A stretch of DNA of 64,000 nucleotides. Origin: a virus (taxonomy: Duplodnaviria; Caudoviricetes). The stretch is from positions 351-64,350 of the IMG/VR virus record IMGVR_UViG_3300042261_000033. The stretch is one strand, 5' to 3'. The notes under the pieces were generated by a model that was not told the DNA's origin, made no database searches, and saw only the letters and a program-made list of their open reading frames with translations. Positions 312-62,959 of the stretch are shown here, in pieces. How positions within the stretch are numbered: position 1 is the first letter of the stretch; each line of letters begins with the position of its first letter. Position numbers and translations under genes: made by a program.

Positions 312-781
312 TTGCAATGCCTCCAGTTTGATTTACTTGTTTCCCATCGGGCATCTGCCCTTATTCTTTTTAATGCTGAGTAAGCATCTGCGTCTTTCTT
401 TGCGCCAACTTCCTCTTTCTTCTCTGCCTGTTGTTTCTTTCCATCAATCGGGTTAAGCAGCGTCTGCATCTTGGTTGCTTTGAGAAGCTTAAGCAGTGCG
501 TCTATCTCAAGGTTGCCGTCCCACAATGCATTACTTAACATCGGCAGATAGCCTGCGATGAATCTTGTAACGCAGGTATGCCACTGGTGTTTTCTTCTTG
601 GTGTTCGCAGTAGTTCATTCATGACATCAAAAGAATCGATCTTGTTCATGTCCATGAAAGACTTAACGCATGTGCGAATAGATGCCTTCGGATATTCATA
701 CCAACCTTTCACAAGGTGTGCATCCCATGCATCCTGCAGGTACTCCATGTGAGCCTGCCGTAACTCTTCTGCAATGTCCAT
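308..781 (-). CDS. Hypothetical protein (start revised to MDIAEEL)
   Basis: GGAGGCTTA RBS at 785-793 directly before ATG at 781; the longer upstream frame runs through structured non-coding sequence. Confidence 0.75.
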   Translation of the reverse strand: MDIAEELRQAHMEYLQDAWDAHLVKGWYEYPKASIRTCVKSFMDMNKIDSFDVMNELLRTPRRKHQWHTCVTRFIAGYLPMLSNALWDGNLEIDALLKLLKATKMQTLLNPIDGKKQQAEKKEEVGAKKDADAYSALKRIRADARWETSKSNWRHCK

Positions 782-799
782 CTGTAAGCCTCCTGTACT

Positions 800-1045
800 G
801 TTATTTTTAATTCTTCCACCCATAGACCCCCCTACCCCATAGGGTAGAGAGGAGAAAGGTGTTCCACCCCCGATAAACGGGTTCGTCATGATAGCGTTAG
901 CCATCCCCTCGGCCTGACGATACGACCAGCCGCACGGATTATTCGGGAACTGCCCCCTAGCCTTTCGGCATACCGTGTAACCCTTTACTCCCACGCCATC
1001 AGGTTGAATGCTTACTATCGTGTGGGGTACGGACGGATTGAGGCA
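800..1045 (-). ncRNA. Candidate structured leader RNA
   Basis: Nested stems 832-837/842-847, 858-861/865-868, 869-872/878-881, 883-888/915-920, 933-937/973-977 and a GAAA-tetraloop hairpin at 960-969. Confidence 0.45.
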
Positions 1046-1047
1046 AA

Positions 1048-1176
1048 TAAAAAACCGCTTAAGTGGAAACCCTGTGTGAGAAGAGGGCGTTCAGATAAAT
1101 ATGCTTGCTGATACTTATCAAAACGTCCAACAGGATTCCCGCTTAAGCGGTCATTCGTTCGGTTCTCACTCCGACA
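1048..1176 (-). promoter_or_regulatory. Attenuator-like long hairpin with U-tract and loop-bulge complementarity
   Basis: Stem 1054-1074/1131-1151 followed by a T-run on the minus strand; bulge 1076-1082 complementary to 1163-1169. Confidence 0.65.
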
Positions 1177-1182
1177 AGAAGC

Positions 1183-1211
1183 AGTGTAGTTCTGCGTTTT
1201 GAGGAAGTCAA
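1183..1211 (-). promoter_or_regulatory. Sigma70-type promoter of the leftward operon
   Basis: TTGACT-17 bp-TACACT. Confidence 0.75.
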
Positions 1212-1220
1212 GAACTTTTT

Positions 1221-1507
1221 AGGGGTGGGCTGGCGTTGACAGTTTTCCCGACTGCAACCTTTTCTCCACAGAATTGATTGAAGCCAGCCCATTGAAGAGG
1301 GAGGGGGCTACCAAATCCATTCCGGTTAAGAATGAATACCCCCATTGGGTGGGGCAGCTAGTTCGCTCAAAAACTATAAACGAGTGTAGTCCCTTTCGGT
1401 TATACAACGTTGGCGCTGCCCCGTAGGTGGGTACTCGCTGCGTCTGGCCGATAGTGCCAACCGGAGTCCCCCAGTCAGCTTCTCAACACAGCATCCGCTT
1501 TCCCCGC
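1221..1507 (-). ncRNA. Array of four stem-closed small RNA cassettes
   Basis: Closing stems 1227-1234/1283-1290, 1303-1307/1339-1343, 1351-1358/1415-1422 and about 1429-1445/1489-1505, each followed by an ACC/UCC 3' tail; directly downstream of a consensus promoter. Confidence 0.6.
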
Positions 1508-1512
1508 TGATG

Positions 1513-1541
1513 ATTATACGAACGTTCCTACTTTAGTGCAA
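1513..1541 (-). promoter_or_regulatory. Sigma70-type promoter driving the small RNA array
   Basis: TTGCAC-17 bp-TATAAT; the spacer contains the palindrome GAACGTTC (1520-1527). Confidence 0.8.
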
Positions 1542-1576
1542 CCTTTAAATCAATGTCTATCAATGCCGGTAAATGG

Positions 1577-1585
1577 TGATACAAT
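1577..1585 (+). promoter_or_regulatory. Extended -10 promoter element for the sRNA
   Basis: TG-A-TACAAT about 6 nt upstream of the first hairpin. Confidence 0.6.
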
Positions 1586-1590
1586 CCGTT

Positions 1591-1665
1591 CGCACTCTCC
1601 GAATTAAGCCTCCGAAGTGTGTCCCCCTAGATAGGGCAGTTCAGTCGAGCTGCCCTATTTTTTTT
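1591..1665 (+). ncRNA. Predicted trans-acting anti-RBS small RNA
   Basis: Stem CGCACT/AGTGTG presents loop AATTAAGCCTCCGA (1602-1615), the reverse complement of the repeated RBS TCGGAGGCTTAATT; ends in an intrinsic terminator. Confidence 0.75.
1631..1665 (+). terminator. Rho-independent terminator
   Basis: ATAGGGCAGT...GCTGCCCTAT hairpin followed by a T8 run. Confidence 0.85.
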
Positions 1666-2018
1666 ACTTCGATTGTGCAACGCGGATTTTCCTTGTCCAG
1701 ATGCCAATAGCAATGGCGTTCTTTTACCTGCCTGTCGTTCATATAGGCCACACCCTGCAGCAGATCAAGGATCAATGACTCATCAAGATCAGGACGGCGA
1801 GACGCGTACCAGATATGCAGCGTTACACACACGTCATCCACGAATGGTTCGTGTCCAAGTTCTTTCGTTTGCTCAATGAATCCCTTGCTGTAGTCCAGTG
1901 CTTTCTTCGACTTGATGAACATGGAACGCCCACCGATACGCACTGCACGGCGACTGTTTGCCTTACTCGCAGGCTCGCCATAGACGGTCAATGAAATAGT
2001 TTGTGATTGTGCTTGCAT
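1641..2018 (-). CDS. rusA: RusA-like Holliday junction resolvase
   Basis: VYGEPASKANS N-terminus, RRPDLD...ILDLLQGVAYMNDRQV acidic motifs, DKENPR C-terminus. Confidence 0.8.
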   Translation of the reverse strand: MQAQSQTISLTVYGEPASKANSRRAVRIGGRSMFIKSKKALDYSKGFIEQTKELGHEPFVDDVCVTLHIWYASRRPDLDESLILDLLQGVAYMNDRQVKERHCYWHLDKENPRCTIEVKKIGQLD

Positions 2019-2041
2019 TGCGAATCCTATAGTGCTATAGT
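2013..2041 (+). promoter_or_regulatory. Sigma70-type promoter of the rightward recombination operon
   Basis: TTGCAT-17 bp-TATAGT with extended TG. Confidence 0.75.
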
Positions 2042-2066
2042 GGTTACTCCAATACGGAGGCTTAGT

Positions 2067-2975
2067 ATGAAAATCACCAACAAGTTCGGAGTTCCCGAGA
2101 CCATTGTTGCCCTTGCTAATCGCGACAGCTACAGCAAAGGCAAGTCTGATTTCTCGGTTACTGAAATCATTTCACCACCACGCATCCAGCTTCTGCGCCG
2201 TAAGCATTACGCTCAGATGGAGACCGATGTATCTGATCTTCTCTGGTCGATGATGGGTACTGCCCTGCACGTTGTAGCAGAACGTTCGCAGGTTGACAAC
2301 CATACGAACGAAGAACGTCTGTTTCTTGAGATCGATGGCGTCGTCCTGTCTGGTGCTATCGACCTGCAGTACGAGGAAGATGGCTGCGTACAGATCACCG
2401 ACTACAAGTTCACGTCTGCTTGGTCTGTCATGAATGACAAGCCTGAGTGGGAGATCCAGCAGAACATCTATGCTTGGATGGTCAGCAAGGTTAAGGGCAA
2501 GCATGTTAATAGCGTTCGCATCTGCGCGTTGATCCGTGATTGGAATCGCCGTGAAGCGCAGCGCAAACAGGACTACCCACAAGCCCCGATCCAGATCGTT
2601 AACCTGCGTCTGTGGACGCCTGAAGAGACTGAGGAATATGTTCGCAGTCGCCTTGAGCTGCACCGCGTTGCCAAGGTTCTTAGTGATTGGGGTGACGAGC
2701 TGCCTGAGTGTACCGAGGAAGACAAGTGGATTCGGGAAACCAAGTATGCAGTCAAGAAGGCAGGCCGTAAGACTGCCGTTCGGGTGTTCGACTCAGAGGC
2801 AGAGGCCAAAGAGTTTATGAACGGCATGATTGAGAAGGACAAAGGATTTATTGAAGTCCGCAAGGGCGAGCCAGTACGTTGTACCGGCAACTTCTGCGGC
2901 GTTAACCAGTGGTGCAGTCAGTACCAAACTTACCTTAAGGAGCAAGAAAATGTCGGTATACAAGAAGCTGAGTGA
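2067..2975 (+). CDS. PD-(D/E)XK (Cas4/RecB-like) exonuclease
   Basis: GTALH, LSGAIDL, ITDYK and QQNIY motifs, C-terminal Cys cluster; GGAGGCTTA RBS before ATG 2067. Confidence 0.85.
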   Translation: MKITNKFGVPETIVALANRDSYSKGKSDFSVTEIISPPRIQLLRRKHYAQMETDVSDLLWSMMGTALHVVAERSQVDNHTNEERLFLEIDGVVLSGAIDLQYEEDGCVQITDYKFTSAWSVMNDKPEWEIQQNIYAWMVSKVKGKHVNSVRICALIRDWNRREAQRKQDYPQAPIQIVNLRLWTPEETEEYVRSRLELHRVAKVLSDWGDELPECTEEDKWIRETKYAVKKAGRKTAVRVFDSEAEAKEFMNGMIEKDKGFIEVRKGEPVRCTGNFCGVNQWCSQYQTYLKEQENVGIQEAE

Positions 2976-3603
2976 AGCCCGTGTGGCATTCCTGAAAGCG
3001 CCAGTCAAGAAGTCTGGCAAGAACAAGTTCGCAGGCTACGAGTACTTTGAGCTTGGCGACTTCATCCCAACAGTTCTTGGCATCCTTGATGGCCACGGCC
3101 TGTGCGGCATCGTCCACTTCGACAAGGAGATGGGCTATCTGGATATCGTTGACAGCGAGAGCGGCGAGAAGGTTTCGTTCACCACGCCAATGGTGTTCGC
3201 ATCCAATCCAAAAGGTCAGGCTATTCAAGACCTCGGTTCGACACACACATACATTCGCCGTTATCTGTGGCTGATGGCTATGGAAATTGTCGAGCATGAC
3301 GCAGTTGATAACCAAGCCCCTAGTGAAACCCCTAAGCCTGCAGTTCCAGCCGCTCCTGCGCCCACGGCGCAAGCCGTAGAGCCATCTGTAGCTGAAGTTC
3401 TTCAGCCATCTTCAATGGAGCAGGAGTTCCTTGTTGAGAAGCTGACCGAACTAGCCACTGTCATGCAGACAGAGAAAGAACTTACCGACCTGTGGAAGGC
3501 TAACCAGAAGCAGATCGATGGTCTCAAGACTAGCAACACCAAGCTGTTCAGTACCCTCAAGGCAAACTTTGCCGAAATCAAGTCCAACATCAAAGGAGCA
3601 TAA
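2950..3603 (+). CDS. erf: ERF-family ssDNA annealing protein
   Basis: KSGKNKFAGYEYFELGD and GSTHTYIRRY motifs; paired with the exonuclease. Confidence 0.85.
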   Translation: MSVYKKLSEARVAFLKAPVKKSGKNKFAGYEYFELGDFIPTVLGILDGHGLCGIVHFDKEMGYLDIVDSESGEKVSFTTPMVFASNPKGQAIQDLGSTHTYIRRYLWLMAMEIVEHDAVDNQAPSETPKPAVPAAPAPTAQAVEPSVAEVLQPSSMEQEFLVEKLTELATVMQTEKELTDLWKANQKQIDGLKTSNTKLFSTLKANFAEIKSNIKGA

Positions 3604-3605
3604 GC

Positions 3606-3896
3606 ATGAACTACGACAAGCCATATCAACCACGTCCTAACTCTGGCTCACTGTTTGCCAAGAAGTCGAAGGCCAAGCCAACATCGCCAGATTACTTCGG
3701 TGACATCCTGATCAAGGTGTCTGACTATCAGATCATCAACGGAGAGATAAAGGTCAGCCTGTCTGGCTGGAAGAAGGTCTCTGCTACAGGCAAACAGTTC
3801 CTGTCGCTGGCAGCGTCAGCTCCTCGCGATGAGCAGATTCCGCAGAACAACTACAACCAGCCGTCGCCGGTTGATGACGATTCGTGTCCGTTCTAA
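3606..3896 (+). CDS. ssDNA-binding-like protein (DUF736-like)
   Basis: SGSLF...PDYFG...SGWKK core and acidic DDDSCPF tail. Confidence 0.7.
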   Translation: MNYDKPYQPRPNSGSLFAKKSKAKPTSPDYFGDILIKVSDYQIINGEIKVSLSGWKKVSATGKQFLSLAASAPRDEQIPQNNYNQPSPVDDDSCPF

Positions 3897-3898
3897 TC

Positions 3899-4093
3899 AT
3901 GATCGACAGAGACAAACTTGAGTACTTCACGATGGCCGCGTGGTTGCGCGGCTACGCTGAAGGGAACGACCAGAACGACATGGTTTCACCAGCTATCACC
4001 AAGAAGATTAAACGGGCTGCTGAAATGCTGGATTTTGTTTTTAACAATGAAGTAAATCACGGAGGTTCAGATGACACTCAGCAAGAATGGTAA
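3899..4093 (+). CDS. Hypothetical protein
   Basis: ORF in a tightly packed operon. Confidence 0.6.
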   Translation: MIDRDKLEYFTMAAWLRGYAEGNDQNDMVSPAITKKIKRAAEMLDFVFNNEVNHGGSDDTQQEW

Positions 4094-4394
4094 GCGCATG
4101 GGACGCCCAGCGGGTTCTAAAAACAAACCCAAAGGCGTTGTGAATGACCGCATTAACAATCAAAGCAAGTTGATCGCAGAACTGAATCGTCAACTGCAGG
4201 CCAAGTCGCAGGAATGTTCTATGCAGAACATGTCTGCTGAAATTCTTGCAGAAAAGCTTGATGAGGTTCGGGATTCGAATGATGACCTGCGTCGTCAATT
4301 GGCTGAAGCGCAGATCGCTGTTCTGGATGGCGTGGCTGTAATCCGTTATCTGGAAAAGAAGGTCTATGACCTAGTCAAGGCTGAAGCAAAATGA
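4071..4394 (+). CDS. AT-hook-like / coiled-coil protein
   Basis: GRPAGSKNKPK motif followed by a heptad-rich segment; GGAGG RBS. Confidence 0.7.
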   Translation: MTLSKNGKRMGRPAGSKNKPKGVVNDRINNQSKLIAELNRQLQAKSQECSMQNMSAEILAEKLDEVRDSNDDLRRQLAEAQIAVLDGVAVIRYLEKKVYDLVKAEAK

Positions 4395-4783
4395 ATGCCC
4401 TTCAGTTCGAAGCCGTTAAGGTTGCGCTTAAGCAAGACAAGACAGGCTTTGTGCTGACGCTGAATATCCACCCTGACGAAATCCCAGAAGAGCTTCTGCG
4501 TGATTTTGTTGGGGCGAGATATGGCGTTGCAATGGTTCGTATCCTTGAAGACGAGTCTGTTGTCGATTACAAGAACCGCGTTAAGCAGGCTGGCATCTTG
4601 TGCAAGACAAAGGACTTTCAGGATTGGCTGTTTGTTGACAGCGAAGCTGCTGCAATCAAGAAGCTATACGAGCGTTGCAACATCAGCTCACGCACTGAGC
4701 TAAATGGCAACAAAGAAGCAATTGAAAAATACGAGGTAATGATCAATGAATACGAGAGCTGGAAAGAGGCAGGCTCGTTCTAA
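4391..4783 (+). CDS. Hypothetical phage protein
   Basis: ATGA overlap with upstream gene; CNISSRTEL motif. Confidence 0.7.
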   Translation: MNALQFEAVKVALKQDKTGFVLTLNIHPDEIPEELLRDFVGARYGVAMVRILEDESVVDYKNRVKQAGILCKTKDFQDWLFVDSEAAAIKKLYERCNISSRTELNGNKEAIEKYEVMINEYESWKEAGSF

Positions 4784-5281: not shown

Positions 5282-5300
5282 ACACAACTGGAGGCTTATC

Positions 5301-5655: not shown

Positions 5656-5667
5656 TTGGAGGCTTAT

Positions 5668-6945: not shown

Positions 6946-6963
6946 CCACCCACAGGAGGCTAA

Positions 6964-36675: not shown

Positions 36676-36999
36676 TTACACCGCCGTCAGTGCAGATACC
36701 CAGCAGTCGGCAGAGCTATTCGCGCTTGCCACAGCCACCAGTACGTCTGAAGACTGAAGCACCACTCGGTTGCCCTGAATGACTTCCAGCGAACCGCCGA
36801 CCGGCACAGTCGCGCCCTTAACCAGATAGTAGTTAACAGCAGAGCGAGTGACGTACACATCGGAGGTGATCGGGGAAGCGGATGTATTGGCTACCACCAA
36901 GCTTGCTACGGCCAGCGTGCCAGAGGATACGGTGGTAACTGTAGACCCTGCCGTGGTAATGTTCTTCACGGCGTAGGAAGCGTTGGAGTAGGTAGTCAT
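36676..36999 (-). CDS. Small virion structural protein
   Basis: Beta-rich 107-aa ORF in the tail block. Confidence 0.65.
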   Translation of the reverse strand: MTTYSNASYAVKNITTAGSTVTTVSSGTLAVASLVVANTSASPITSDVYVTRSAVNYYLVKGATVPVGGSLEVIQGNRVVLQSSDVLVAVASANSSADCWVSALTAV

Positions 37000-45281: not shown

Positions 45282-45908
45282 TTAGGCTGCGTAATCCAGA
45301 CCCGTGGTACCAAGGATCTGCGGATTGTTGAGTTTGACAACTACTTCACAGTAGGTAGTCGACGAAGTGTTGGTGTCAGTTACGACGCCGATTACACGCA
45401 GTGGCAGAGCAGCAGCGTTGCCAGCGGCATTCGTAGCGTAAACCGAAACAGCCGAGTCACCAGTTACAGTCGAACCAGTACCTTGGCGAACAGGAACGTT
45501 CGTGCCAACGATGCTTTGGTTTACCGAAGTAACGGTAGTGTTGCCCGAGTAAGTCACAGCAACCTTGAAGGCAGCCATTGGATCGTCGATAACGTATGCA
45601 ACAGCGTTGCTTACGCCCGAGTTACCCGGATAGTACTGAGCCTCAACAGGCTGGCTCATCGAGTTGGTGTAAGCCACGCCAACAAACACGCCATAGGTGT
45701 TGTTTGCAGCAGCAGTTGTTGCGTCGTCCGTAACGGTCGATTTTACGATTGTGCCACCAGCGGCGATACGCACGATGTCGCCGTTGTAGATTGCGGTGTT
45801 ATATGTCGAGGCAATCGGCAGTTGCTTGATTGCGCCAGCATAAGGCAGGCCATCTACACGGTTGATCGGCTTGAGGCCGTAAGGGGCGCTAACGGTTGGG
45901 TATGCCAT
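45282..45908 (-). CDS. Capsid-associated (cement/minor head) protein
   Basis: APYGLKP...IYNGDIV...GVFVG; directly upstream of the capsid gene. Confidence 0.7.
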   Translation of the reverse strand: MAYPTVSAPYGLKPINRVDGLPYAGAIKQLPIASTYNTAIYNGDIVRIAAGGTIVKSTVTDDATTAAANNTYGVFVGVAYTNSMSQPVEAQYYPGNSGVSNAVAYVIDDPMAAFKVAVTYSGNTTVTSVNQSIVGTNVPVRQGTGSTVTGDSAVSVYATNAAGNAAALPLRVIGVVTDTNTSSTTYCEVVVKLNNPQILGTTGLDYAA

Positions 45909-53509: not shown

Positions 53510-53836
53510 ATTTAAAAAATATATTGGGGGTGGGGTGTTCGTAGAAACGTTCCTATAGGGGGTCATTCTGCAGGAGAACGTTCTTATAAGCAACAGACAA
53601 TTTAAAGGGGGGTACCCCTATGGGCGACAGGCAGAACGTTCGTATGTAACAGGGGAATGGAAATGGGATGTGTGGATCATACTGTATAGCCCAGCCTGAC
53701 ATGACCGCCTAAAAAGCGGGGGTGGCGGTACCGTGGGTTGCATATATCCAAATCGGTTGACGGGATGGGGTCGAGATAATGCGTTGCCATTTAAATTTCA
53801 AATAGCTGATTGATTATCCCGAATCACATGGTGCAG

Positions 53837-54997: not shown

Positions 54998-55209
54998 ATC
55001 AATACGCAGAACTAGCACAGGACATCTGGCCTCATGCAACACCTGAACAGATCGCAGTACTGTCTAATGCCTTACGGAAAGGATTTGCCCGTTCGGCTTC
55101 GCCTAGCACAACATCTCCGGCGCAGTCAAGCACGAACGTTCACCCCAGTAAACAAGCGGCTTCCAGCCATAGTGTTGCGTTTAAACAACAGAGTGATAGC
55201 ACAAAGTGA
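54994..55209 (+). CDS. Hypothetical protein
   Basis: ATGA overlap; the 3' half is low complexity and overlaps a repeat. Confidence 0.4.
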   Translation: MNQYAELAQDIWPHATPEQIAVLSNALRKGFARSASPSTTSPAQSSTNVHPSKQAASSHSVAFKQQSDSTK

Positions 55210-55483: not shown

Positions 55484-55506
55484 CTCACAAACAAACGGAG
55501 GCTGTC

Positions 55507-55686
55507 ATGACCCACTACACAACCTACTATCGCAGCGCAAAGAAAATGCAACAAGAGCAGGACATGCGTGACCGGCTGAATCAATACTCAAATCACAACG
55601 GCTGTTTTACCGAGCAGGATCGCAAGGTTGCTGATGAATATCTGGCAAAAGAATTGCTCGCCAACTTCATTGCAACAGAACTTTAA
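55507..55686 (+). CDS. Early hypothetical protein (59 aa)
   Basis: Translated by hand; CGGAGGCT RBS. Confidence 0.7.
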   Translation: MTHYTTYYRSAKKMQQEQDMRDRLNQYSNHNGCFTEQDRKVADEYLAKELLANFIATEL

Positions 55687-55698
55687 TTTGGAGGCTAT

Positions 55699-55854
55699 AT
55701 GCGAGACCAATTAATTAAAACCTATCTTGATTGGGTAAATAATTACCTGACAGTTGAGACGTTCGCAGATCACTATGGTCTGCAATTGGCAGATGCAGAG
55801 GCTTTAATCAAGGTATGCCGTAACGTGTATTACAACCCACACCCAGAGGCTTAA
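55699..55854 (+). CDS. Early hypothetical protein (51 aa)
   Basis: YLDWVNNYLTVETFADHYG; GGAGGCT RBS. Confidence 0.75.
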   Translation: MRDQLIKTYLDWVNNYLTVETFADHYGLQLADAEALIKVCRNVYYNPHPEA

Positions 55855-55856
55855 TC

Positions 55857-56060
55857 ATGTACAACATCACGACAATTCACCCAAACCTGTTTGCCAAGCG
55901 CATTAAACCGATGGACTACGTCACCAATGGCGATGACGTTGGGCGTTACTTTGGCACAACCAAGCGTGGCACTCACGTTGTGGCATGGGGCGATAAGCGG
56001 GACGATTACGAAACCGCAGAGAAACTAATTGCTTATTTAAATAAATATCAAGGGGCTTAA
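55857..56060 (+). CDS. Early hypothetical protein
   Basis: GAGGCTTAAT RBS. Confidence 0.7.
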   Translation: MYNITTIHPNLFAKRIKPMDYVTNGDDVGRYFGTTKRGTHVVAWGDKRDDYETAEKLIAYLNKYQGA

Positions 56061-56062
56061 TC

Positions 56063-56278
56063 ATGGTTCATTTAGGACAACCGCAGTATTTGATTCGCAT
56101 TAATAGTTCGGTACGGGATGTGGCAAAGCGCAAGGAATTGAGAATCAAAATGGAGCGATTCCTGCGTGGCAAAACCCGTTATACCCGTGAAGCGGTAGCA
56201 CGTTCTGCTCTGGTTGATATGCCGGTCGGTCTGCGTGAGTACTGCGAAATGGTTGAAACTATTCCAATGCACTTTTAA
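56063..56278 (+). CDS. Early hypothetical protein
   Basis: GGGGCTTAAT RBS. Confidence 0.65.
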   Translation: MVHLGQPQYLIRINSSVRDVAKRKELRIKMERFLRGKTRYTREAVARSALVDMPVGLREYCEMVETIPMHF

Positions 56279-56292
56279 TCGGAGGCTTAATT

Positions 56293-56604
56293 ATGCAATA
56301 CGCAAATCACATTGGTTATTCTGACGTTAATCCATTTGAAATCGTTCGCATGGTCAGCGAAAAGACAGCCGACATCAGGGCGATGGATTCAGAGCGTGAC
56401 CCAGATTGGAAACCGGAGTTCGTTGCCGGTGGTTTCTCTGCTGTCTGTCTGAATAATTGCGAACAGCGTTGGATTATCACGCCAAATGCGAACGGAGAGG
56501 TAGTTCGTATTCGCAAACATTCAAGCGGCGTCTGGAAAGATAAACATGGACGGCGTTATTCATTAGCTGACACTCCGCAGAAGTTTTACGACTACAACTT
56601 TTAA
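56293..56604 (+). CDS. Early hypothetical protein
   Basis: TCGGAGGCTTAATT RBS; KFYDYNF C-terminus. Confidence 0.75.
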   Translation: MQYANHIGYSDVNPFEIVRMVSEKTADIRAMDSERDPDWKPEFVAGGFSAVCLNNCEQRWIITPNANGEVVRIRKHSSGVWKDKHGRRYSLADTPQKFYDYNF

Positions 56605-56617
56605 TCGGGGGTTAATC

Positions 56618-56914
56618 ATGGCTTGCTATTACGTCACGCTTTATATGACAGATCGTGCTTACGGCGGTGCTGAAGAGGGCGGTTGGTGGTACGACTGCGG
56701 TTATCCCGTGGTTGATTCGATGAACCGCTGTTTTAATTCTGAAGACGAAGCTTATGCCTATCGTGATTCTGAAGAGGTTCAATCTATTCTGGCTCAATTG
56801 AATGACGGCAAACCGGATATTAATAGCGTTAACTGCGAGGGTGTTTATAAGGTTTTCATTGATGAGAATCAATTCCCTGCTGAATATCCAACTGAACGTC
56901 CTTATTACTGCTAA
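56618..56914 (+). CDS. Early acidic hypothetical protein
   Basis: DRAYGGAEEGGWWYD motif. Confidence 0.75.
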   Translation: MACYYVTLYMTDRAYGGAEEGGWWYDCGYPVVDSMNRCFNSEDEAYAYRDSEEVQSILAQLNDGKPDINSVNCEGVYKVFIDENQFPAEYPTERPYYC

Positions 56915-56926
56915 TCGGAGGCTTAT

Positions 56927-57211
56927 ATGTCACTCACACTCACAACCAAATATTTAGAAGCCACTAATACCCGTGGCGCACGAATCAAAGTTAAATGTTT
57001 TTATGGCGAATCAATTACTGTGCCATATAACCATGCATTTAGTGGAGTGGAGATGCATACATTCGCAGTCCTAGAATGGTTGCGTAAATACAAGCTAGAT
57101 AACAAGGGTTTTAAATTCGCCATTGGCGATTCAGATCGTGGTTATGTTTTCTCGCATATTAGTGAAGTCGCAACATTCGACAACGAAACATTTCAAATTA
57201 AATGGCAATGA
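56927..57211 (+). CDS. Early hypothetical protein
   Basis: TKYLEATNTRGARIK motif; TCGGAGGCTTA RBS. Confidence 0.75.
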   Translation: MSLTLTTKYLEATNTRGARIKVKCFYGESITVPYNHAFSGVEMHTFAVLEWLRKYKLDNKGFKFAIGDSDRGYVFSHISEVATFDNETFQIKWQ

Positions 57212-57223
57212 GGGTAATTAATC

Positions 57224-57592
57224 ATGAAATCAAACTACAGCATTTACATGGAAGCAATTGACGCAGGTCACGCCGCTCTTAATGCGGCAACACCAACCCC
57301 GATGGTAGTGGTGGAGGCTGACATCTGGGGCAACCCAGTTGCCGGTGCTACCCGCCATTATGTGGATGAGGGTGCGTGTGGCTTTGCTTGGATTCAGATC
57401 AAGGGCAACACCGGCTTTGGTCGGGAGATGAAGAAACTGAACCTGTTCAGCAAAGCATATCCAACTGGTCTGCAGTACTGGGTCGGCGAGGGCGGTCAAT
57501 CAGTCGAGCGTAAGGAAGCATTCGCCCGTGCATTCGCCAAGGTTTTAAATAAATACGGCATTCAAGCTTATGCCGGTTCACGTTTAGATTAA
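57224..57592 (+). CDS. Early conserved phage protein
   Basis: GACGFAW...QSVERKEAFARAFAKVL...SRLD. Confidence 0.8.
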   Translation: MKSNYSIYMEAIDAGHAALNAATPTPMVVVEADIWGNPVAGATRHYVDEGACGFAWIQIKGNTGFGREMKKLNLFSKAYPTGLQYWVGEGGQSVERKEAFARAFAKVLNKYGIQAYAGSRLD

Positions 57593-57604
57593 TTAGAGGG
57601 AATT

Positions 57605-57736
57605 ATGCTAGAGACAATCATTGCAAATATTAAACAAGCAATTCGGAATCGTGAGAGCGTGACAATTGGAGGCGGTGTATTTACACCACAGGAATTGCAA
57701 ACGCTAATCGATCTGTATAACGAACATAATAAATAG
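57605..57736 (+). CDS. Early small protein (43 aa)
   Basis: Translated by hand; GAGGG RBS. Confidence 0.6.
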   Translation: MLETIIANIKQAIRNRESVTIGGGVFTPQELQTLIDLYNEHNK

Positions 57737-57744
57737 GGGGTTAT

Positions 57745-57957
57745 ATGGAATACATCATCATCGATGATTTAAATAACAAGACTGTATATACAACGGATGA
57801 CAAATATAAGGCCAAGGCAATGCAGGAAATCCTGATTGATAAATACGGCAGAGCATTCTTTGTTTGCGGTTCTAATTTAAATCCATCAACTGCCCTACAA
57901 CAAGAGGCAGGTCAATTACAAATCAAATCAGACGTTGCTGTACCTGATCGTTCTTAA
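57745..57957 (+). CDS. Early hypothetical protein
   Basis: AGGGGG RBS. Confidence 0.6.
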   Translation: MEYIIIDDLNNKTVYTTDDKYKAKAMQEILIDKYGRAFFVCGSNLNPSTALQQEAGQLQIKSDVAVPDRS

Positions 57958-57974
57958 TACTCGGAGGCTTAATC

Positions 57975-58394
57975 ATGGGAAATCGCGCTGTTATTACTGC
58001 ATCAACCAAACGAACCGGTGCTGTTGGTATTTACCTGCATTGGAATGGTGGCATTGAATCTGTTCTGGCTTTCTGCCATGCCGCACGGGATCGGGGCTAT
58101 CGTGATCCGTCTGCCGATGATTCATACGCAATGGCTCGCCTCTGCGGTTTGATTCACGAATTCTTTGGCGTGTACGAATCAACCAGTCTGGGCATCGGCT
58201 GCATCGAACACCTCGACACCGACAATTACGACAACGGCACGTTCGTTATTGGTAAGGATTGGAATATCACCGACCGATGGGGTAAGGGTTCAACTGATGT
58301 AATGACATTGGATCAATTCACGCCACAGCAATTGAATCATTACACCGCCATTATTGATTTTCTAAAACAAACACCACAGCAACAAGCGGCTTAA
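57975..58394 (+). CDS. Early conserved phage protein
   Basis: MGNRAVI...GIYLHWNGG...DNG; TCGGAGGCTTAAT RBS. Confidence 0.8.
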   Translation: MGNRAVITASTKRTGAVGIYLHWNGGIESVLAFCHAARDRGYRDPSADDSYAMARLCGLIHEFFGVYESTSLGIGCIEHLDTDNYDNGTFVIGKDWNITDRWGKGSTDVMTLDQFTPQQLNHYTAIIDFLKQTPQQQAA

Positions 58395-58414
58395 TTAATA
58401 CCGGAGGCTTAATC

Positions 58415-58720
58415 ATGTTTGATCAACACGACATTTGCGTAATGGAAGATGGCGATTACGAAGCATCGCAGGAAGAATATTTTATCTCGGTGCAGAAAGC
58501 CATTAACGATGGACTCTGGTCGCTACAGGGTAGCTATGGCAGGGCAATGATGGACGCCATTGAAGACGGCTATTGCGTACTAGGCCGCACCGGTTTCCGT
58601 GACTACTACGGCAATTACATTCCGTCCCGTGACGAAGTGGAAGACGGCACCAAGGGTTCTGTTGGTTATGTATTCCGTGCCAATGGCGAATACTGGACTG
58701 CAATGATCTCGGAGGTTTAA
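58415..58720 (+). CDS. Early acidic protein
   Basis: WSLQGSYGR...DYYGN motif; CGGAGGCTTAAT RBS. Confidence 0.8.
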   Translation: MFDQHDICVMEDGDYEASQEEYFISVQKAINDGLWSLQGSYGRAMMDAIEDGYCVLGRTGFRDYYGNYIPSRDEVEDGTKGSVGYVFRANGEYWTAMISEV

Positions 58721-58722
58721 TT

Positions 58723-58902
58723 ATGACAGAAGCCGAATTCGATGAATACATTCAAACAGCCGATGGCGAGTCTCATTATTATGAGTGGTTATATGATGAA
58801 GACCCGTCACTCGGTAAACATTCAATTATTAAAGCAATGGAAGACGGCTATTTAATTGAAGATTTTATGGAACATTTAGGAGTTAATCGTGAACAAATAT
58901 AA
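58723..58902 (+). CDS. Early acidic small protein (59 aa)
   Basis: Translated by hand; TCGGAGGTTTAATT RBS. Confidence 0.7.
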   Translation: MTEAEFDEYIQTADGESHYYEWLYDEDPSLGKHSIIKAMEDGYLIEDFMEHLGVNREQI

Positions 58903-60639: not shown

Positions 60640-60906
60640 CTATTTCCAATCGCCCGTATCGCCTCGATTGCCTTTCTTAAACTGCTCTCTGGCGGCTTCT
60701 CGAAGTCGAGCGGCGGCGTGTTGTCCTCTTTTTTGCTCGACCAGAGCGACATAAACTTCGAGACGCTTTCTACCGCCTTTTGTAAACTTTCGTAGAACGT
60801 CACGCACTTCGCATCGAAAGCGATGATCTTCCTGCGTATCCAGAACAGTTGATCCCGTTTCATCTTCAGATATTCCATCATCATCAAAAATCGCTAACTG
60901 GCTCAA
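60640..60906 (-). CDS. Conserved small phage protein (start uncertain, possibly TTG)
   Basis: HRFRCEVR...KRG..AA..L...GNRG..GDWK pattern. Confidence 0.55.
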   Translation of the reverse strand: MSQLAIFDDDGISEDETGSTVLDTQEDHRFRCEVRDVLRKFTKGGRKRLEVYVALVEQKRGQHAAARLREAAREQFKKGNRGDTGDWK

Positions 60907-62572
60907 AATAAGACCCCGTGACCTTGTCGTAACCCAATGTGGTTTCACCCTGCGTACCGATCCACCGGTAACGGCATTTCCAGATGGCTATCTGCACAGA
61001 ATTCTCTGGTGTTCGATGTACTGTCACGCCACAATCTGCCTTTGCCCACCATGCCATTGAGCCGGAGATCGACATCCCGTCAGGACGGGGCAAATCCGTA
61101 CCGGTTCGGCTGACTTTTGCAGGGTGAGCGATAAACCAGACATGAACCCCGTAAGACTTAGCGAATGCCTGTACCTTGGTCAGAATCTGGCTGATGAAGT
61201 CCGTCTCAGATCCGTTGTGCTTATTGTCGATGTAGTTGTACGGGTCGATGACCAGACCCCGAATACCCATCTGCGCCACAGCGGCTTTAGCCCGATCCAG
61301 AACCGAGTCGATGGTGGCTGACTCAATGGTCTCGGAATCCATGATGATGAAGTGATCATTGACCCATTCGAATGCTTCGTCCCGCTCCTGCTCCGTCATG
61401 CGGTGCGTGCCATCTAAGAATCGTTTGTTCTGGTACAGCTCCATGAACCGGCTGATGTGCGTGGGTGGTTGGTTTTCGAATGAGCAGACTGCGAACTTCC
61501 AATCACTGCGCTTTGCCAGATTGACCATCAACTGGTCGATAAAGTTTGATTTACCGCAGGACGGGTAACCCGTGACGATTGAAAGCTGACCCTCTGCGAT
61601 GGTGTAAATCTCATCGATGTTTGAATAACCTGTCGACTCACCTTTACCCGTGCCGTTTTCCCACAGGTCGTAAAGCTTTTCTTTGAACTTGCTCACGCTC
61701 GACAGGCCGACAACAGGGAACGGCTCTGCCTTTTCAATCATCTTTTCAACGGCCTCTTTGCCCTCGGCAAGGAACAGTTCGTTGATGTCTTTGTAATTCG
61801 ACTTGGCAATGCGGCAACGCTCTTTGCCAATGCGGCGGGATAACTCTTCAGCCAAGGCGTGGCCTGCAGGATCGTTGTCCGTGGCGATAACGATATAGGG
61901 TGACTTTTGCAGGACATCATTCGCATCCCAGACAAAGGCAAACTTCCGGTCTTCGGATGCATCAATCTTGCCATCCTTAACCGACATCGGCGCACCACTG
62001 GGTACAGAGACCACGTTCTCAATGCCGCATTCCATTGCGGTCAGGGCATCCATCTCGCCTTCGACAATGATGATTGGCTTGGTCGGATCAACCTTATCGA
62101 TACCGAAGAACGTCTGCGCCCCGCCGGTATCCTGCGTGAAGTCTTTGCTTTCAATGCTGCGGTATTTGGCAGCGGTCATCTTGCCGTCTTTGTAATACGG
62201 GAAGCCAATGGCTTCGCCCTTCTTGTTCAGCTTCTGAAACCATCTCTCTGCGGCAAACAGCTTCATGCTGTCGGCTGTCTCCTGCGATATGCCACGGGTC
62301 TTGAGGAATGCGTAATGCTCTGGCTGCAGGGCATGGAAGTCTACTGGTTTTACTTGGACAGCCGATGGAAAATTAATCACTTTGAACTCCGTATTGTTCT
62401 TATCTTTGATAAAGCCTTCTGCGTTGCAGTGATGGCAGTAATACCGCCACCCATCATTAGTTCGGGTGACAGTCATGTCTTTCTGGTTGTGTTTGCGCCT
62501 GTCTTCCGAGCATTCTGGACAGACAATGCGTCTTGTCGTATCGATATACGACACAGCCTCTGCTGTTAACAC
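60884..62572 (-). CDS. Primase-helicase (T7 gp4/Twinkle-like)
   Basis: CPEC...CHHC zinc finger, TOPRIM IVEGEMD and ATDND, Walker A GYPSCGKS, LVIDPYN, AHPAK. Confidence 0.95.
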   Translation of the reverse strand: MLTAEAVSYIDTTRRIVCPECSEDRRKHNQKDMTVTRTNDGWRYYCHHCNAEGFIKDKNNTEFKVINFPSAVQVKPVDFHALQPEHYAFLKTRGISQETADSMKLFAAERWFQKLNKKGEAIGFPYYKDGKMTAAKYRSIESKDFTQDTGGAQTFFGIDKVDPTKPIIIVEGEMDALTAMECGIENVVSVPSGAPMSVKDGKIDASEDRKFAFVWDANDVLQKSPYIVIATDNDPAGHALAEELSRRIGKERCRIAKSNYKDINELFLAEGKEAVEKMIEKAEPFPVVGLSSVSKFKEKLYDLWENGTGKGESTGYSNIDEIYTIAEGQLSIVTGYPSCGKSNFIDQLMVNLAKRSDWKFAVCSFENQPPTHISRFMELYQNKRFLDGTHRMTEQERDEAFEWVNDHFIIMDSETIESATIDSVLDRAKAAVAQMGIRGLVIDPYNYIDNKHNGSETDFISQILTKVQAFAKSYGVHVWFIAHPAKVSRTGTDLPRPDGMSISGSMAWWAKADCGVTVHRTPENSVQIAIWKCRYRWIGTQGETTLGYDKVTGSYFEPVSDF

Positions 62573-62586
62573 GGTTAAGCCTCCGG

Positions 62587-62865: not shown

Positions 62866-62959
62866 GTTTATCTCCTGATCAAGGCTTAAATTTACGCCTG
62901 ATAAGATCCTGTGGCAATGTGTTCGCAGGAAATTTTGAGTGTCCCCTGCGAACGTTCTT

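What the first reader, a model, noticed from the sequence alone, without database searches (positions are those of the whole stretch)
1577..1665. Phage sRNA whose loop is antisense to a shared extended RBS of at least 12 early, middle and replication genes
Seen: an extended -10 (TGATACAAT, 1577-1585), a 6-bp stem presenting the loop CTCCGAATTAAGCCTCCGA, and an intrinsic terminator (1631-1665) define a ~75-nt RNA. Bases 1602-1615 (AATTAAGCCTCCGA) are the exact 14-nt reverse complement of TCGGAGGCTTAATT directly before ATG 56293. They match 13 nt before 57975, 12 nt before 58415, 11 nt before 56927 and before the primase-helicase GTG (62575-62585, minus), and 14 nt with one G:U before 58723. GGAGGCT(TA) cores also precede 781(-), 2067, 5301, 5668, 6964, 55507 and 55699. 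The pairing extends beyond the generic SD into the spacer. Structural-gene starts that I checked (45269, 44192, 38054, 39855, 47308) use GGAGTT/GGAGAA/GGAGCA instead. Inference: one trans-acting RNA represses translation of a whole temporal class, acting as an RNA-based repressor, early-to-late switch or superinfection-immunity factor. I do not know whether this family has been described.
Basis: partly seen in the sequence, partly recalled or inferred. Interest (0 to 1): 0.92.

Follow-up and report, generated by a model that had tools for sequence, protein, structure and literature searches.

The report
Phage small RNA targeting own ribosome-sites
A family of uncultured lake phages carries a roughly 75-base RNA gene whose hairpin loop mirrors a private ribosome-binding tag on the phage's own replication and early genes; loop and tag change together across relatives, so the RNA very probably controls their translation, although no transcript has been seen.

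Summary
At 1577-1668 (+) lie an extended -10, a 6-bp stem with a 19-nt loop, and a strong intrinsic terminator. The loop is the exact reverse complement of TCGGAGGCTTAATT before ATG 56293, and matches 9-13 nt before 11 further starts. GGAGGCTTA occurs 10 times against 0.35 expected. GGAGGCT sits at 13 of 45 non-late starts and 0 of 61 late starts (my own heuristic gene list).

The element is a real, conserved RNA gene. It has 38 homologues in 80 related IMG/VR loci, always next to the 3' end of a RusA-like gene, one copy per genome. The promoter keeps its position, both hairpin stems covary, and the loop core AGCC(U/C)CC never changes.

The base after GGAGGCT (T, C or A) is the same in the loop complement and in the primase-helicase RBS in 33 of 34 lineages, and in an AAA-ATPase RBS in 16 of 16. 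Relatives without the RNA lack the tag. No Rfam family matches, C4 included.

Best reading: a trans-acting anti-RBS sRNA of a virulent phage that represses a subset of early and replication genes. Repression and timing are inferred, and no transcript data exist. This scan has already reported similar anti-RBS hairpins in other phage genomes, but not this family.

The parts
1520..1527 (.). GAACGTTC palindrome about 50 nt upstream of the -10. It may be an operator for a phage DNA-binding protein that controls the sRNA promoter.
   Evidence: The palindrome occurs 7 times in the window against 0.88 expected. A copy or half-site lies beside or inside the sRNA promoter in many relatives. The function is inferred.
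1577..1585 (+). Extended -10 promoter element TGnTACAAT, with a weak -35 (CTATCA) 17 nt upstream.
   Evidence: A sigma-70-like promoter sits at the same place in relatives: score >=10 in 20 of 29 distinct homologues against 1.4% of random pieces. The -10 ends 17-24 nt before the AGCC core in 25 of 29.
1591..1621 (+). Stem-loop 1 (SL1) of the sRNA. The 6-bp stem is 1591-1596/1616-1621 and includes one G:U pair. The 19-nt loop is 1597-1615. The inferred 5' end is about 1591.
   Evidence: Fold. The central loop bases AUUAAGCC are unpaired with probability about 1.0. All 5 SL1 model pairs show double compensatory changes among 29 homologues.
1602..1615 (+). Anti-RBS seed AAUUAAGCCUCCGA. The core AGCC(U/C)CC is invariant in the family.
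   Evidence: Invariant columns. Exact 14-nt reverse complement of 56279-56292.
1629..1668 (+). Intrinsic terminator: a 14-bp hairpin followed by a U-tract. It overlaps the stop codon (1641-1643) of the convergent RusA-like gene.
   Evidence: The terminator helix covaries. RusA assignment from Pfam PF05866, E = 8e-8.
56279..56292 (+). Target RBS of the 103-aa early gene (ATG 56293): 14-nt perfect complement.
   Evidence: Cofold ddG -18.5 kcal/mol.
57961..57973 (+). Target RBS of the 139-aa gene (ATG 57975): 13 nt.
58402..58413 (+). Target RBS of the 101-aa gene (ATG 58415): 12 nt.
58709..58722 (+). Target RBS of the 59-aa gene (ATG 58723): 14 nt with one G:U.
56915..56925 (+). Target RBS of the 94-aa gene (ATG 56927): 11 nt.
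62575..62585 (-). Target RBS of the primase-helicase gene (GTG 62572): 11 nt. This is the target that co-varies with the loop across relatives.
   Evidence: phrog_239 DNA primase/helicase, E = 2.6e-93.
2055..2064 (+). Target RBS of the PD-(D/E)XK exonuclease gene (ATG 2067): 10 nt.
785..793 (-). Target RBS of the 157-aa gene (ATG 781): 9 nt.
5290..5298 (+). Target RBS of the 49-aa gene (ATG 5301): 9 nt.
5658..5666 (+). Target RBS of the 116-aa gene (ATG 5668): 9 nt.
6955..6961 (+). Core-only tag GGAGGCT before ATG 6964 (125 aa, weak MarR-like PHROG hit).
55496..55503 (+). Core tag CGGAGGCT before ATG 55507.
55690..55696 (+). Core tag GGAGGCT before ATG 55699.
55846..55855 (+). Tag variant GAGGCTTAAT before ATG 55857: 10 nt.

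Best explanation
Positions 1591 to about 1668 (+) encode a trans-acting, base-pairing small RNA of about 75 nt in a virulent, host-RNAP-dependent lake phage.

How it is built (shown): a sigma-70-type promoter drives it. Its first hairpin presents an open loop whose invariant core AGCC(U/C)CC, plus 2-7 lineage-specific neighbouring bases, is complementary to a private extension of the Shine-Dalgarno region, GGAGGCU followed by spacer bases.

What carries that tag (shown): the primase-helicase gene, the recombination exonuclease gene, many small presumed-early genes and, in relatives, an AAA ATPase gene.

What pairing does (inferred): the duplex covers the SD and spacer up to the start codon, so it should block 30S binding and lower translation of this gene subset. 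Late genes use other SD types and would escape.

Speculative: the promoter looks constitutive and the gene is replicated along with the genome, so RNA dose may rise with genome copy number. That would give a delayed negative feedback on replication and early functions.

Status of the steps: gene architecture, conservation, structure covariation, complementarity, loop-RBS covariation and class bias are shown. Transcription, direct pairing in vivo, the sign of regulation and the timing are inferred.
For: 1. The anatomy is real: fold z = -5.9, terminator, extended -10.

2. It is a conserved gene.
- Covariance model R1 hits the window and 38 of 80 related loci. There is exactly one hit in each of 5 whole relative contigs, and none in six sRNA-less loci even with filters off.
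- All hits sit beside the 3' end of the RusA-like gene.
- The promoter keeps its position in 25 of 29 distinct homologues.
- The T-run always follows the hairpin on the + strand.

3. It is a structured RNA. 14 of 18 model pairs show double changes, 88% of cells are paired against 76% in shuffles (0 of 500 shuffles as high), and slid controls give 30-51%. All five SL1 pairs covary while the loop core is invariant.

4. It is not an RBS for a minus-strand gene. 11 of 29 homologues have no start codon behind the reverse-complement loop. In the other 18 the ORFs are 3-77 aa and are not conserved.

5. The loop co-varies with its targets.
- Primase-helicase RBS: the base after GG(R)GGCT equals the loop-complement base in 29 of 34 lineages by script. 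Four of the five misses are window cut-offs that read concordant. L020 is the one real exception.
- On the exonuclease tree, 26 of 26 rows are concordant, with 5 parsimony changes in each trait.
- AAA-ATPase RBS: 16 of 16 contigs that carry the sRNA are concordant, including the TTT variant of L020.
- Phages with a CCCCC loop use G-rich GGGGCUUAA tags.
- L187 matches 12 nt including its private CATTT extension.

6. Own loop against foreign loops. Across 37 relatives' loci, 62 TIRs match the phage's own loop by at least 9 nt, against 9.6 expected from loops of other classes. Own exceeds cross in 33 loci, never the reverse, with 4 ties.

7. Loss goes with loss. In sRNA-less relatives, 0 of 18 exonuclease RBSs contain GGAGGCT. 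L029 is the sister of sRNA-bearing L020 and lacks the tag at the primase, AAA and exonuclease genes. At the syntenic site it has only a plain minus-strand terminator.

8. Class bias in the window.
- GGAGGCT lies at 13 of 45 non-late TIRs and 0 of 61 late TIRs, Fisher p = 4.6e-6.
- 7 of the 9 strongest non-self duplex sites in a whole-genome scan are RBSs of early, recombination or replication genes.
- Cofold ddG is -5.6 to -21.7 kcal/mol for 12 of 13 tagged TIRs and 0 to -6.1 for 7 late TIRs.
Against: - Only a minority of non-late genes (13 of 45) carry the core, and my gene list and temporal labels are heuristic.
- Late genes also pair more weakly with the 16S anti-SD in general (Mann-Whitney p = 8e-6). 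Part of the class contrast is therefore generic SD strength.
- The exonuclease RBS tracks the loop at the +1 base in only 26 of 36 lineages: 8 are discordant and 2 lack the core.
- In whole contig G002 (C-type loop), T-type 9-mers outnumber C-type 3 to 1.
- Independent co-changes are few. Only 2 independent pairs lie on well-supported branches (4 on all branches), so the sign test cannot reach significance.
- In most relatives the sRNA and the primase RBS are less than 1 kb apart, so they could be inherited together as one recombination module.
- The window's own copy is divergent: it lacks SL2, scores 42 bits and has a weak -35.
- G:U against A:C counts favour the + strand only modestly, 23 to 14.
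- The sign of regulation, the host and any chaperone dependence are unknown.
Confidence: 0.68

Rival explanations
1. The RNA and the pairing are the same, but the outcome is positive or protective. Binding at the RBS would stabilise the tagged mRNAs, shield the GGAG site from a nuclease, or delay translation rather than shut it off.
For: Nothing in the sequence fixes the sign of regulation. The comparative evidence shows only that pairing is selected.
Against: The duplex covers the SD and spacer up to the start codon. In known systems that geometry blocks initiation (recalled general knowledge). No alternative inhibitory mRNA structure that pairing would open was looked for or seen.
Confidence: 0.12
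2. The RNA mainly acts between phages. It would be a specificity (hetero-immunity or exclusion) determinant that shuts down the replication and early genes of co-infecting relatives carrying the same tag, as the c4 RNAs of P1 and P7 do.
For: Discrete loop classes (T, C, A, CCCCC) are matched by the tags of the same genome. The c4 RNA of P1/P7 works through loop-to-RBS pairing, with immunity specificity set by matching changes (review PMC12197685, passages read).
Against: The complete DTR genome has no tyrosine or serine integrase, so no lysogenic state in which immunity would matter is evident. The classes differ by only 1-3 bases around a shared 7-nt core, so cross-reaction is likely.
Confidence: 0.1
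3. The functional strand is the minus strand. The element would be the structured 3' UTR or intergenic part of the rusA operon transcript, displaying an SD-like sequence in a loop (a ribosome standby or decoy site, or a relic RBS). The plus-strand 'sRNA' would be an illusion.
For: The flanking genes are on the minus strand. The reverse-complement loop is a perfect RBS-like sequence 26 nt beyond the rusA stop. In the L021 lineage a 52-aa ORF starts right behind it. Helices fold on either strand.
Against: - The sigma-70-like promoter is conserved on the + strand at a fixed distance.
- The U-tract lies on the + strand side of the terminator in all 29 homologues.
- G:U pairs outnumber A:C pairs 23 to 14.
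- 11 of 29 homologues have no start codon behind the motif and no ORF is conserved.
- A decoy would not need to co-vary with the primase and AAA RBSs.
Confidence: 0.06
4. The shared motif is a DNA-level site, for example for a phage DNA-binding or replication protein. Alternatively it is simply a recombination-spread RBS cassette, and the inverted copy in the hairpin has no RNA-pairing role.
For: The early block shows a stereotyped junction TAATCGGAGGCTTAATCATG, which duplication or recombination could spread. A 14-nt inverted match in 64 kb is not rare by itself (my estimate: several expected by chance).
Against: - 9 of 10 GGAGGCTTA copies sit in sense orientation, 4-7 nt before a start codon.
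- The single inverted copy lies in the loop of a hairpin whose stems covary.
- Orthologous RBSs of unrelated genes track the loop across lineages, and the tag disappears where the RNA is absent.
Confidence: 0.04

Closest known systems
c4 antisense RNA of phages P1 and P7 (Rfam C4, RF01695)
   Same: A phage-encoded RNA of similar size. Hairpin loops pair with target sites that include an RBS and block translation. Specificity is set by a few loop bases matched by compensating target bases (review PMC12197685, passages read).
   Different: There is no match to the C4 covariance model. That c4 is cut from the same transcript as its single target operon and serves lysogenic immunity is recalled, not read. 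The RNA here has its own promoter, is convergent with rusA, faces many unlinked targets, and sits in a genome without an integrase.
Cuckoo / CcsR (RSs0680, alpha-r14) sRNAs of Alphaproteobacteria
   Same: [quoted passage not shown]
   Different: Cuckoo RNAs are host-encoded. They have 2-4 hairpins that each carry CCUCCUCCC, and no private target tag is known. Here there is one loop with AGCC(U/C)CC plus lineage-specific bases matched by the phage's own RBS extension. Rfam gives no match.
C-rich-loop anti-SD sRNAs of Firmicutes (RNAIII hairpins, RsaE/RoxS); recalled, no paper read
   Same: C-rich hairpin loops pair with the SD regions of several mRNAs and repress initiation.
   Different: They are chromosomal, their seeds are generic, and targets and seed are not known to co-evolve as a private code. 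No sequence relation was found.
T4 RegB and RegA proteins (review PMC3014915, seen only as search listing and start of abstract; details recalled)
   Same: The functional analogy is post-transcriptional shut-off of early phage messages by recognising their ribosome-binding regions (the GGAG motif).
   Different: Those agents are proteins: a nuclease and a translational repressor. Here the proposed agent is an RNA.
Plasmid copy-number antisense RNAs (CopA of R1, Inc RNAs); recalled
   Same: A constitutively made small RNA with a loop seed limits translation of the replication initiator, so its dose follows gene copy number.
   Different: Those RNAs are cis-encoded opposite their single target leader. 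Here the RNA is trans-encoded and the primase-helicase is only one of several targets.

Membership tests
Rfam C4 antisense RNA (RF01695) | Match to the family covariance model at or above the gathering score (45 bits) | tested here: not met
   No hit in the whole-window gathering scan. None among the hits with E <= 10 in 700-2100. The direct RF01695 search of the genome scored 4 candidates and none reached E <= 0.001 (the control genomes do not contain the family).
Rfam C4 antisense RNA (RF01695) | Loops complementary to an RBS-containing target site | tested here: met
   Searches give 9-14 nt of complementarity at 12 TIRs.
Rfam C4 antisense RNA (RF01695) | Temperate-phage immunity context, with the RNA processed from the target operon's own transcript (recalled definition) | tested here: not met
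   No integrase or resolvase in the complete genome. The RNA has its own promoter and is convergent with rusA.
Cis-encoded antisense RNA (P22 sar or lambda OOP type) | Transcribed opposite to, and overlapping, the regulated part of its target gene | tested here: not met
   No conserved ORF or start codon lies opposite the loop: 11 of 29 have none and the rest give ORFs of 3-77 aa. Only the terminator overlaps the last codons of rusA.
Trans-encoded base-pairing sRNA (generic class) | Own promoter and intrinsic terminator delimiting a short non-coding transcript | tested here: met
   at sequence level only. No conserved + strand ORF.
Trans-encoded base-pairing sRNA (generic class) | Conserved accessible seed complementary to several unlinked mRNAs | tested here: met
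   Invariant loop core, unpaired probability about 1, targets 0.4-10 kb away on both strands.
Trans-encoded base-pairing sRNA (generic class) | Detectable transcript, and regulation lost with seed mutations | not testable with these tools
   No RNA run on record holds the stretch.
Cuckoo / CcsR RNA family | 2-4 adjacent hairpins, each with loop motif CCUCCUCCC (PMC4615179) | tested here: not met
   There is a single anti-SD loop with AGCC(U/C)CC. SL2 and the terminator carry no such motif. Rfam gives no hit.
Any Rfam 15 family | Gathering-score match | tested here: not met
   0 matches in 64 kb. The best sub-threshold hit is suhB at 19 bits against a gathering score of 41, driven by the terminator.

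The most novel reading that the evidence does not exclude
The phage runs an RNA-addressed regulon. A private sequence tag written into the ribosome-binding sites of its replication, recombination and early genes is read by one small RNA, and that RNA's dose follows genome copy number. The pair would then act as a protein-free timer that closes the early and replication programme as DNA accumulates. Because tag and reader co-evolve in discrete classes, the pair would also define which co-infecting relatives can cross-regulate each other.
Probability: 0.3. Interest if true: 0.9.

Novelty: new variant of a known kind. Interest (0 to 1): 0.8.

Why it matters
Temporal control in virulent phages is usually explained by proteins such as sigma factors, anti-sigma factors, RNA polymerases, and nucleases or repressors like T4 RegB and RegA. 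Here a single small RNA appears to address a set of the phage's own genes through a private extension of their ribosome-binding sites, and comparative evidence shows that tag and reader evolve together.

If confirmed, it would add an RNA-based layer to phage developmental timing. It would also give a natural, orthogonal sRNA/RBS pair set (T, C, A and CCCCC classes) for synthetic translational control.

Earlier cases noted by this scan in other phage genomes suggest that such anti-RBS RNAs are widespread in uncultured phages. The two literature searches and the 2025 review of phage sRNAs (passages read) did not turn up such a multi-target, own-gene sRNA in a lytic phage.

Tried and rejected
Searches and tests that gave nothing:
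- Rfam: no family matches.
- tRNA and tmRNA: none in the window.
- DNA similarity to 50,697 deposited phage records: none for 1000-2100. The nearest deposited primase-helicase is 32.8% identical.
- An exact 21-nt loop pattern in IMG/VR: 0 hits.
- Expression: no RNA holder is listed for window 500-4500. Two metatranscriptome runs of the same study laid no contig on 1000-2400, and two DNA runs cover it without variation in 1564-1704. This says nothing about expression either way.
- Host: the GTDB-genome pattern scan gave 4 hits. Only one is a true family member by the model, a 2.9-kb contig in a MAG bin. The other three do not match the model, and about 9 chance hits were expected by my estimate. 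No host could be named.
- Phage-encoded Hfq, ProQ, T7-type RNA polymerase and sigma-70 region 2: none found. The RNA polymerase control rang nowhere, so that blank is weak.

Readings considered and rejected:
- A cis-antisense reading was rejected.
- A small protein on the + strand was rejected: ORFs over the core range from 0 to 120 aa and are not conserved.

Technical limits:
- RNAalifold on the MAFFT alignment found only the terminator, because SL1 registers differ between sequences. I therefore supplied the structure for the model by hand. Pair counts on the model-fitted alignment lean towards that structure.
- A YUNR (U-turn) motif directly 5' of the core is present in 24 of 29 homologues by fixed windows. 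The link to fast antisense pairing is recalled and was not tested.
- My first gene caller mis-set several starts. Three were corrected by hand before the class test, ORFs under 40 aa and one ORF in the non-coding gap were dropped, and ORFs nested in the exonuclease gene were removed.
- My notebook says 41 loci. The correct count is 38 of 80.
- Supplementary files of papers were not consulted.
Full report
WHAT IS THERE

The window is 64,000 of the 64,350 bases of a complete phage genome with direct terminal repeats. It comes from a lake or freshwater metagenome. It has no close deposited relative: blastn of 1000-2100 found nothing, and the best deposited primase-helicase is 32.8% identical.

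- TGATACAAT lies at 1577-1585.
- The stem is 1591-1596/1616-1621 and carries the 19-nt loop CTCCGAATTAAGCCTCCGA. MFE is -29.4 kcal/mol, z = -5.9, and 0 of 200 shuffles fold as well.
- A 14-bp terminator with a T-run lies at 1629-1668.
- The terminator overlaps the stop codon of a convergent minus-strand gene, 1641-2018, which is RusA-like (PF05866).

Neighbouring genes are a PD-(D/E)XK exonuclease (2067-2975) and an ERF recombinase. The element therefore sits inside the recombination and replication module.

COMPLEMENTARITY IN THE WINDOW

- The reverse complement of 1602-1615 recurs exactly at 56279-56292, directly before ATG 56293.
- GGAGGCTTA occurs 10 times against 0.35 expected. Nine copies are in sense orientation 4-7 nt before the start of an ORF. 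The tenth is the loop itself.
- GGAGGCT occupies an RBS position at 12 starts that I accept: 781-, 2067, 5301, 5668, 6964, 55507, 55699, 56293, 56927, 57975, 58415 and 62572-. Close variants lie at 55857, 56063, 56618, 57745, 58723 and 4071.
- In my heuristic gene list the core is at 13 of 45 non-late TIRs and 0 of 61 late TIRs, Fisher p = 4.6e-6. One of the 13 has a doubtful TTG start.
- A duplex scan of both strands puts 7 RBSs of early, recombination or replication genes among the 9 best non-self sites. The other two are chance G-rich sites at 36855+ and 35024-.
- Loops that keep CCUCC but have a shuffled flank reach the observed 10 strong non-late targets in 5 of 200 trials. The extension beyond the generic SD therefore matters.

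Caveats:
- Late genes also pair less well with the 16S anti-SD in general.
- The loose 14-mer search with 3 mismatches is not significant alone.
- The temporal labels are inferred from gene order and content.

IT IS A CONSERVED RNA GENE

I used the exonuclease protein as an anchor and fetched 80 related IMG/VR loci at 45-69% identity. Just beyond the RusA stop, many of them carry the same plus-strand arrangement:
- a sigma-70-like promoter;
- a hairpin whose loop contains ..TTAAGCCTCC.. or a variant;
- usually a second small hairpin, GACCAGTAGGTC;
- a terminator.

There are 29 distinct sequences including the window. A covariance model built from them behaves as follows.
- It hits the window (42 bits) and 38 of the 80 loci.
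- It gives exactly one hit in each of five whole relative contigs.
- It gives none in six sRNA-less loci even with filters off.
- A pattern for the SL2 subfamily finds 33 IMG/VR contigs, 11 of them new.

Evidence for structure:
- 14 of 18 pairs show changes on both sides.
- 88% of cells are paired, against 76% in shuffles (0 of 500 as high) and 30-51% when partners are slid.
- All five SL1 pairs covary, while A-G-C-C-(U/C)-C-C in the loop is invariant.
- This alignment was fitted to a structure I supplied, which favours that structure.

Evidence for the plus strand:
- Promoter score is at least 10 in 20 of 29 homologues against 1.4% of random pieces, and the -10 ends 17-24 nt before the core in 25 of 29.
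- The T-run follows the terminator on the + strand in all 29.
- G:U pairs outnumber A:C pairs 23 to 14.

The reverse-complement loop is not the RBS of a conserved minus-strand gene. 11 of 29 homologues have no start codon within 3-14 nt. The other 18 give ORFs of 3-77 aa, and only the L021 lineage (52 aa) and L007 (77 aa) exceed 32 aa. No + strand ORF is conserved either.

LOOP AND TARGETS CHANGE TOGETHER

The loop complement reads GG(A/G)GGCT followed by T, C or A.

Primase-helicase RBS:
- The RBS shows the same base after the core in 29 of 34 lineages by script.
- Four of the five misses (L021, L025, L033, L044) are window cut-offs. In one search they read GGAGGCTTA, or GGAGGCTAA for the last three, and are concordant.
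- L020 (GGAGGATCT) is the one real exception.
- Contiguous matches are 8-12 nt. L187 matches 12 nt including its private CATTT.
- On an exonuclease-protein tree, 26 of 26 rows are concordant, with 5 parsimony changes in each trait. C-type and A-type loops are scattered over the tree.
- The independent-pairs test finds only 2 pairs on well-supported branches (4 on all branches), which is too few for significance.

AAA ATPase gene (about 480 aa, absent from the window's genome):
- This is a second orthologous target. It is concordant in 16 of 16 sRNA-bearing contigs, including GGAGGCTTT in L020.

CCCCC-loop phages:
- These use GGGGCTTAA-type tags. In whole contig G001, 5 sites match the phage's own loop by at least 9 nt, and none match any foreign loop.

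Own loop against foreign loops:
- Over 37 relatives' loci, 62 TIRs match the own loop by at least 9 nt against 9.6 for loops of other classes. Own exceeds cross in 33 loci, never the reverse, with 4 ties.

Loss goes with loss:
- 0 of 18 sRNA-less loci have GGAGGCT at the exonuclease RBS.
- L029, the sister of L020, lacks the tag at all three genes. At the syntenic site it has only a plain minus-strand terminator.

Results against a simple picture:
- The exonuclease RBS follows the loop at +1 in only 26 of 36 lineages; 8 are discordant and 2 lack the core.
- In G002 (C-type), T-type 9-mers outnumber C-type 3 to 1.
- The sRNA and the primase RBS lie less than 1 kb apart in most relatives, so they could travel as one module. 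That would reduce the number of truly independent events.

HOW IT MOST LIKELY WORKS

Shown:
- a stand-alone, conserved, structured small RNA gene;
- an open loop, with AUUAAGCC unpaired at probability about 1;
- 9-14 nt of complementarity covering SD and spacer up to the start codon of several unlinked genes;
- co-evolution of loop and tags;
- absence of the tag from late genes.

Inferred:
- Host RNA polymerase makes the RNA. No phage RNA polymerase or sigma factor was found, although the RNA polymerase blank is weak.
- The loop seeds on GGAGGCU and the duplex blocks 30S binding, lowering translation of the primase-helicase, recombination and small early genes.
- Cofold ddG is -5.6 to -21.7 kcal/mol for 12 of 13 tagged TIRs (55507: -1.8) and 0 to -6.1 for 7 late TIRs.
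- The primase-helicase gene uses GTG or TTG starts in most lineages, which fits a tightly limited gene.

Speculative:
- RNA dose follows genome copy number and times the shut-down.
- A GAACGTTC palindrome next to the promoter may add protein control. It occurs 7 times in the window against 0.88 expected and is also found beside the promoter in relatives.

The genome has no integrase or resolvase, so a lysogenic-immunity role like that of c4 is less likely than a role within the lytic cycle.

COMPARISON WITH WHAT IS KNOWN

- There is no Rfam match, C4 included.
- The closest known system in how it works is the c4 RNA of P1/P7: loops pair with an RBS, and specificity is set by matched changes (review PMC12197685, passages). 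c4 is tied to one operon and to immunity (recalled).
- Cuckoo/CcsR RNAs share anti-SD-like loops on variable stems, but they are chromosomal and multi-hairpin with CCUCCUCCC (PMC4615179, passages).
- Two full-text searches and the 2025 review did not show a phage sRNA that addresses many of the phage's own early or replication genes through a private RBS tag.
- Within this scan, at least 8 followed-up notes describe similar anti-RBS hairpins in other, unrelated phage genomes. None concerns this family. Those are unchecked AI notes and are not independent evidence.
- The present case stands out for four reasons: a separate gene with its own conserved promoter and terminator, dozens of homologues, covariation in two orthologous targets, and the correlation of tag loss with sRNA loss.

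VERDICT

Pairing with a subset of early and replication TIRs is very likely. Repression and the switch role are inferred.
- Novelty: a new variant of a known kind.
- Interest: 0.8.

Noticed in passing
window 782-1577: An ORF-free stretch of about 800 nt lies between the sRNA and the next minus-strand gene. Part of it (819-1057) is 72-75% identical to DNA in sRNA-less relatives L037, L038, L041, L042 and L046. Short pieces (1044-1089, 1348-1424) are shared with other contigs of the same metagenomes. Rfam gives no hit. It may hold further structured RNAs or the origin of replication.
   Followed up: partly
window 1139-1150 and 1055-1066: A perfect 12-nt palindrome CCGCTTAAGCGG and a near copy CCGCTTAAGTGG lie about 85 nt apart in the non-coding gap. 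Read by eye.
   Followed up: no
window 1520-1527, 2280-2287, 45494-45501, 53576-53583, 53634-53641, 55134-55141, 62950-62957: The GAACGTTC palindrome occurs 7 times against 0.88 expected. Copies or half-sites lie beside or inside the sRNA promoter in many relatives. It is a candidate operator of a phage regulator.
   Followed up: partly
window 55490-58730: The early-gene block has a stereotyped junction TAATC-GGAGGCTTAATC-ATG, in which the upstream TAA often serves as the stop codon of the preceding gene.
   Followed up: partly
L095:5035-6507 (-) and orthologues in G001, G002 and G004: An AAA ATPase of about 480 aa (Walker A motif GERGTGKS, read by eye) is a conserved tagged target in relatives, but it has no homologue in the window's genome.
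   Followed up: partly
L021, L023 and L024 near 5516 (-): In this lineage a 52-aa minus-strand ORF (43 aa in L026) starts with ATG 7 nt behind the reverse-complement loop. Here the sRNA could also act as a cis-antisense RNA.
   Followed up: no
L029, L030 and L032, syntenic site beyond the RusA stop: Relatives without the sRNA carry only a plain minus-strand intrinsic terminator there. The model finds nothing even with filters off.
   Followed up: yes
window 60884-62572 (-) and orthologues: The primase-helicase gene starts with GTG or TTG in most lineages, placed directly after the tag.
   Followed up: no
L208 (a 2.9-kb contig in a MAG bin labelled as an uncultured archaeon): It carries a full-scoring copy of the sRNA at 71 bits. 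It is probably a phage contig binned by mistake.
   Followed up: no
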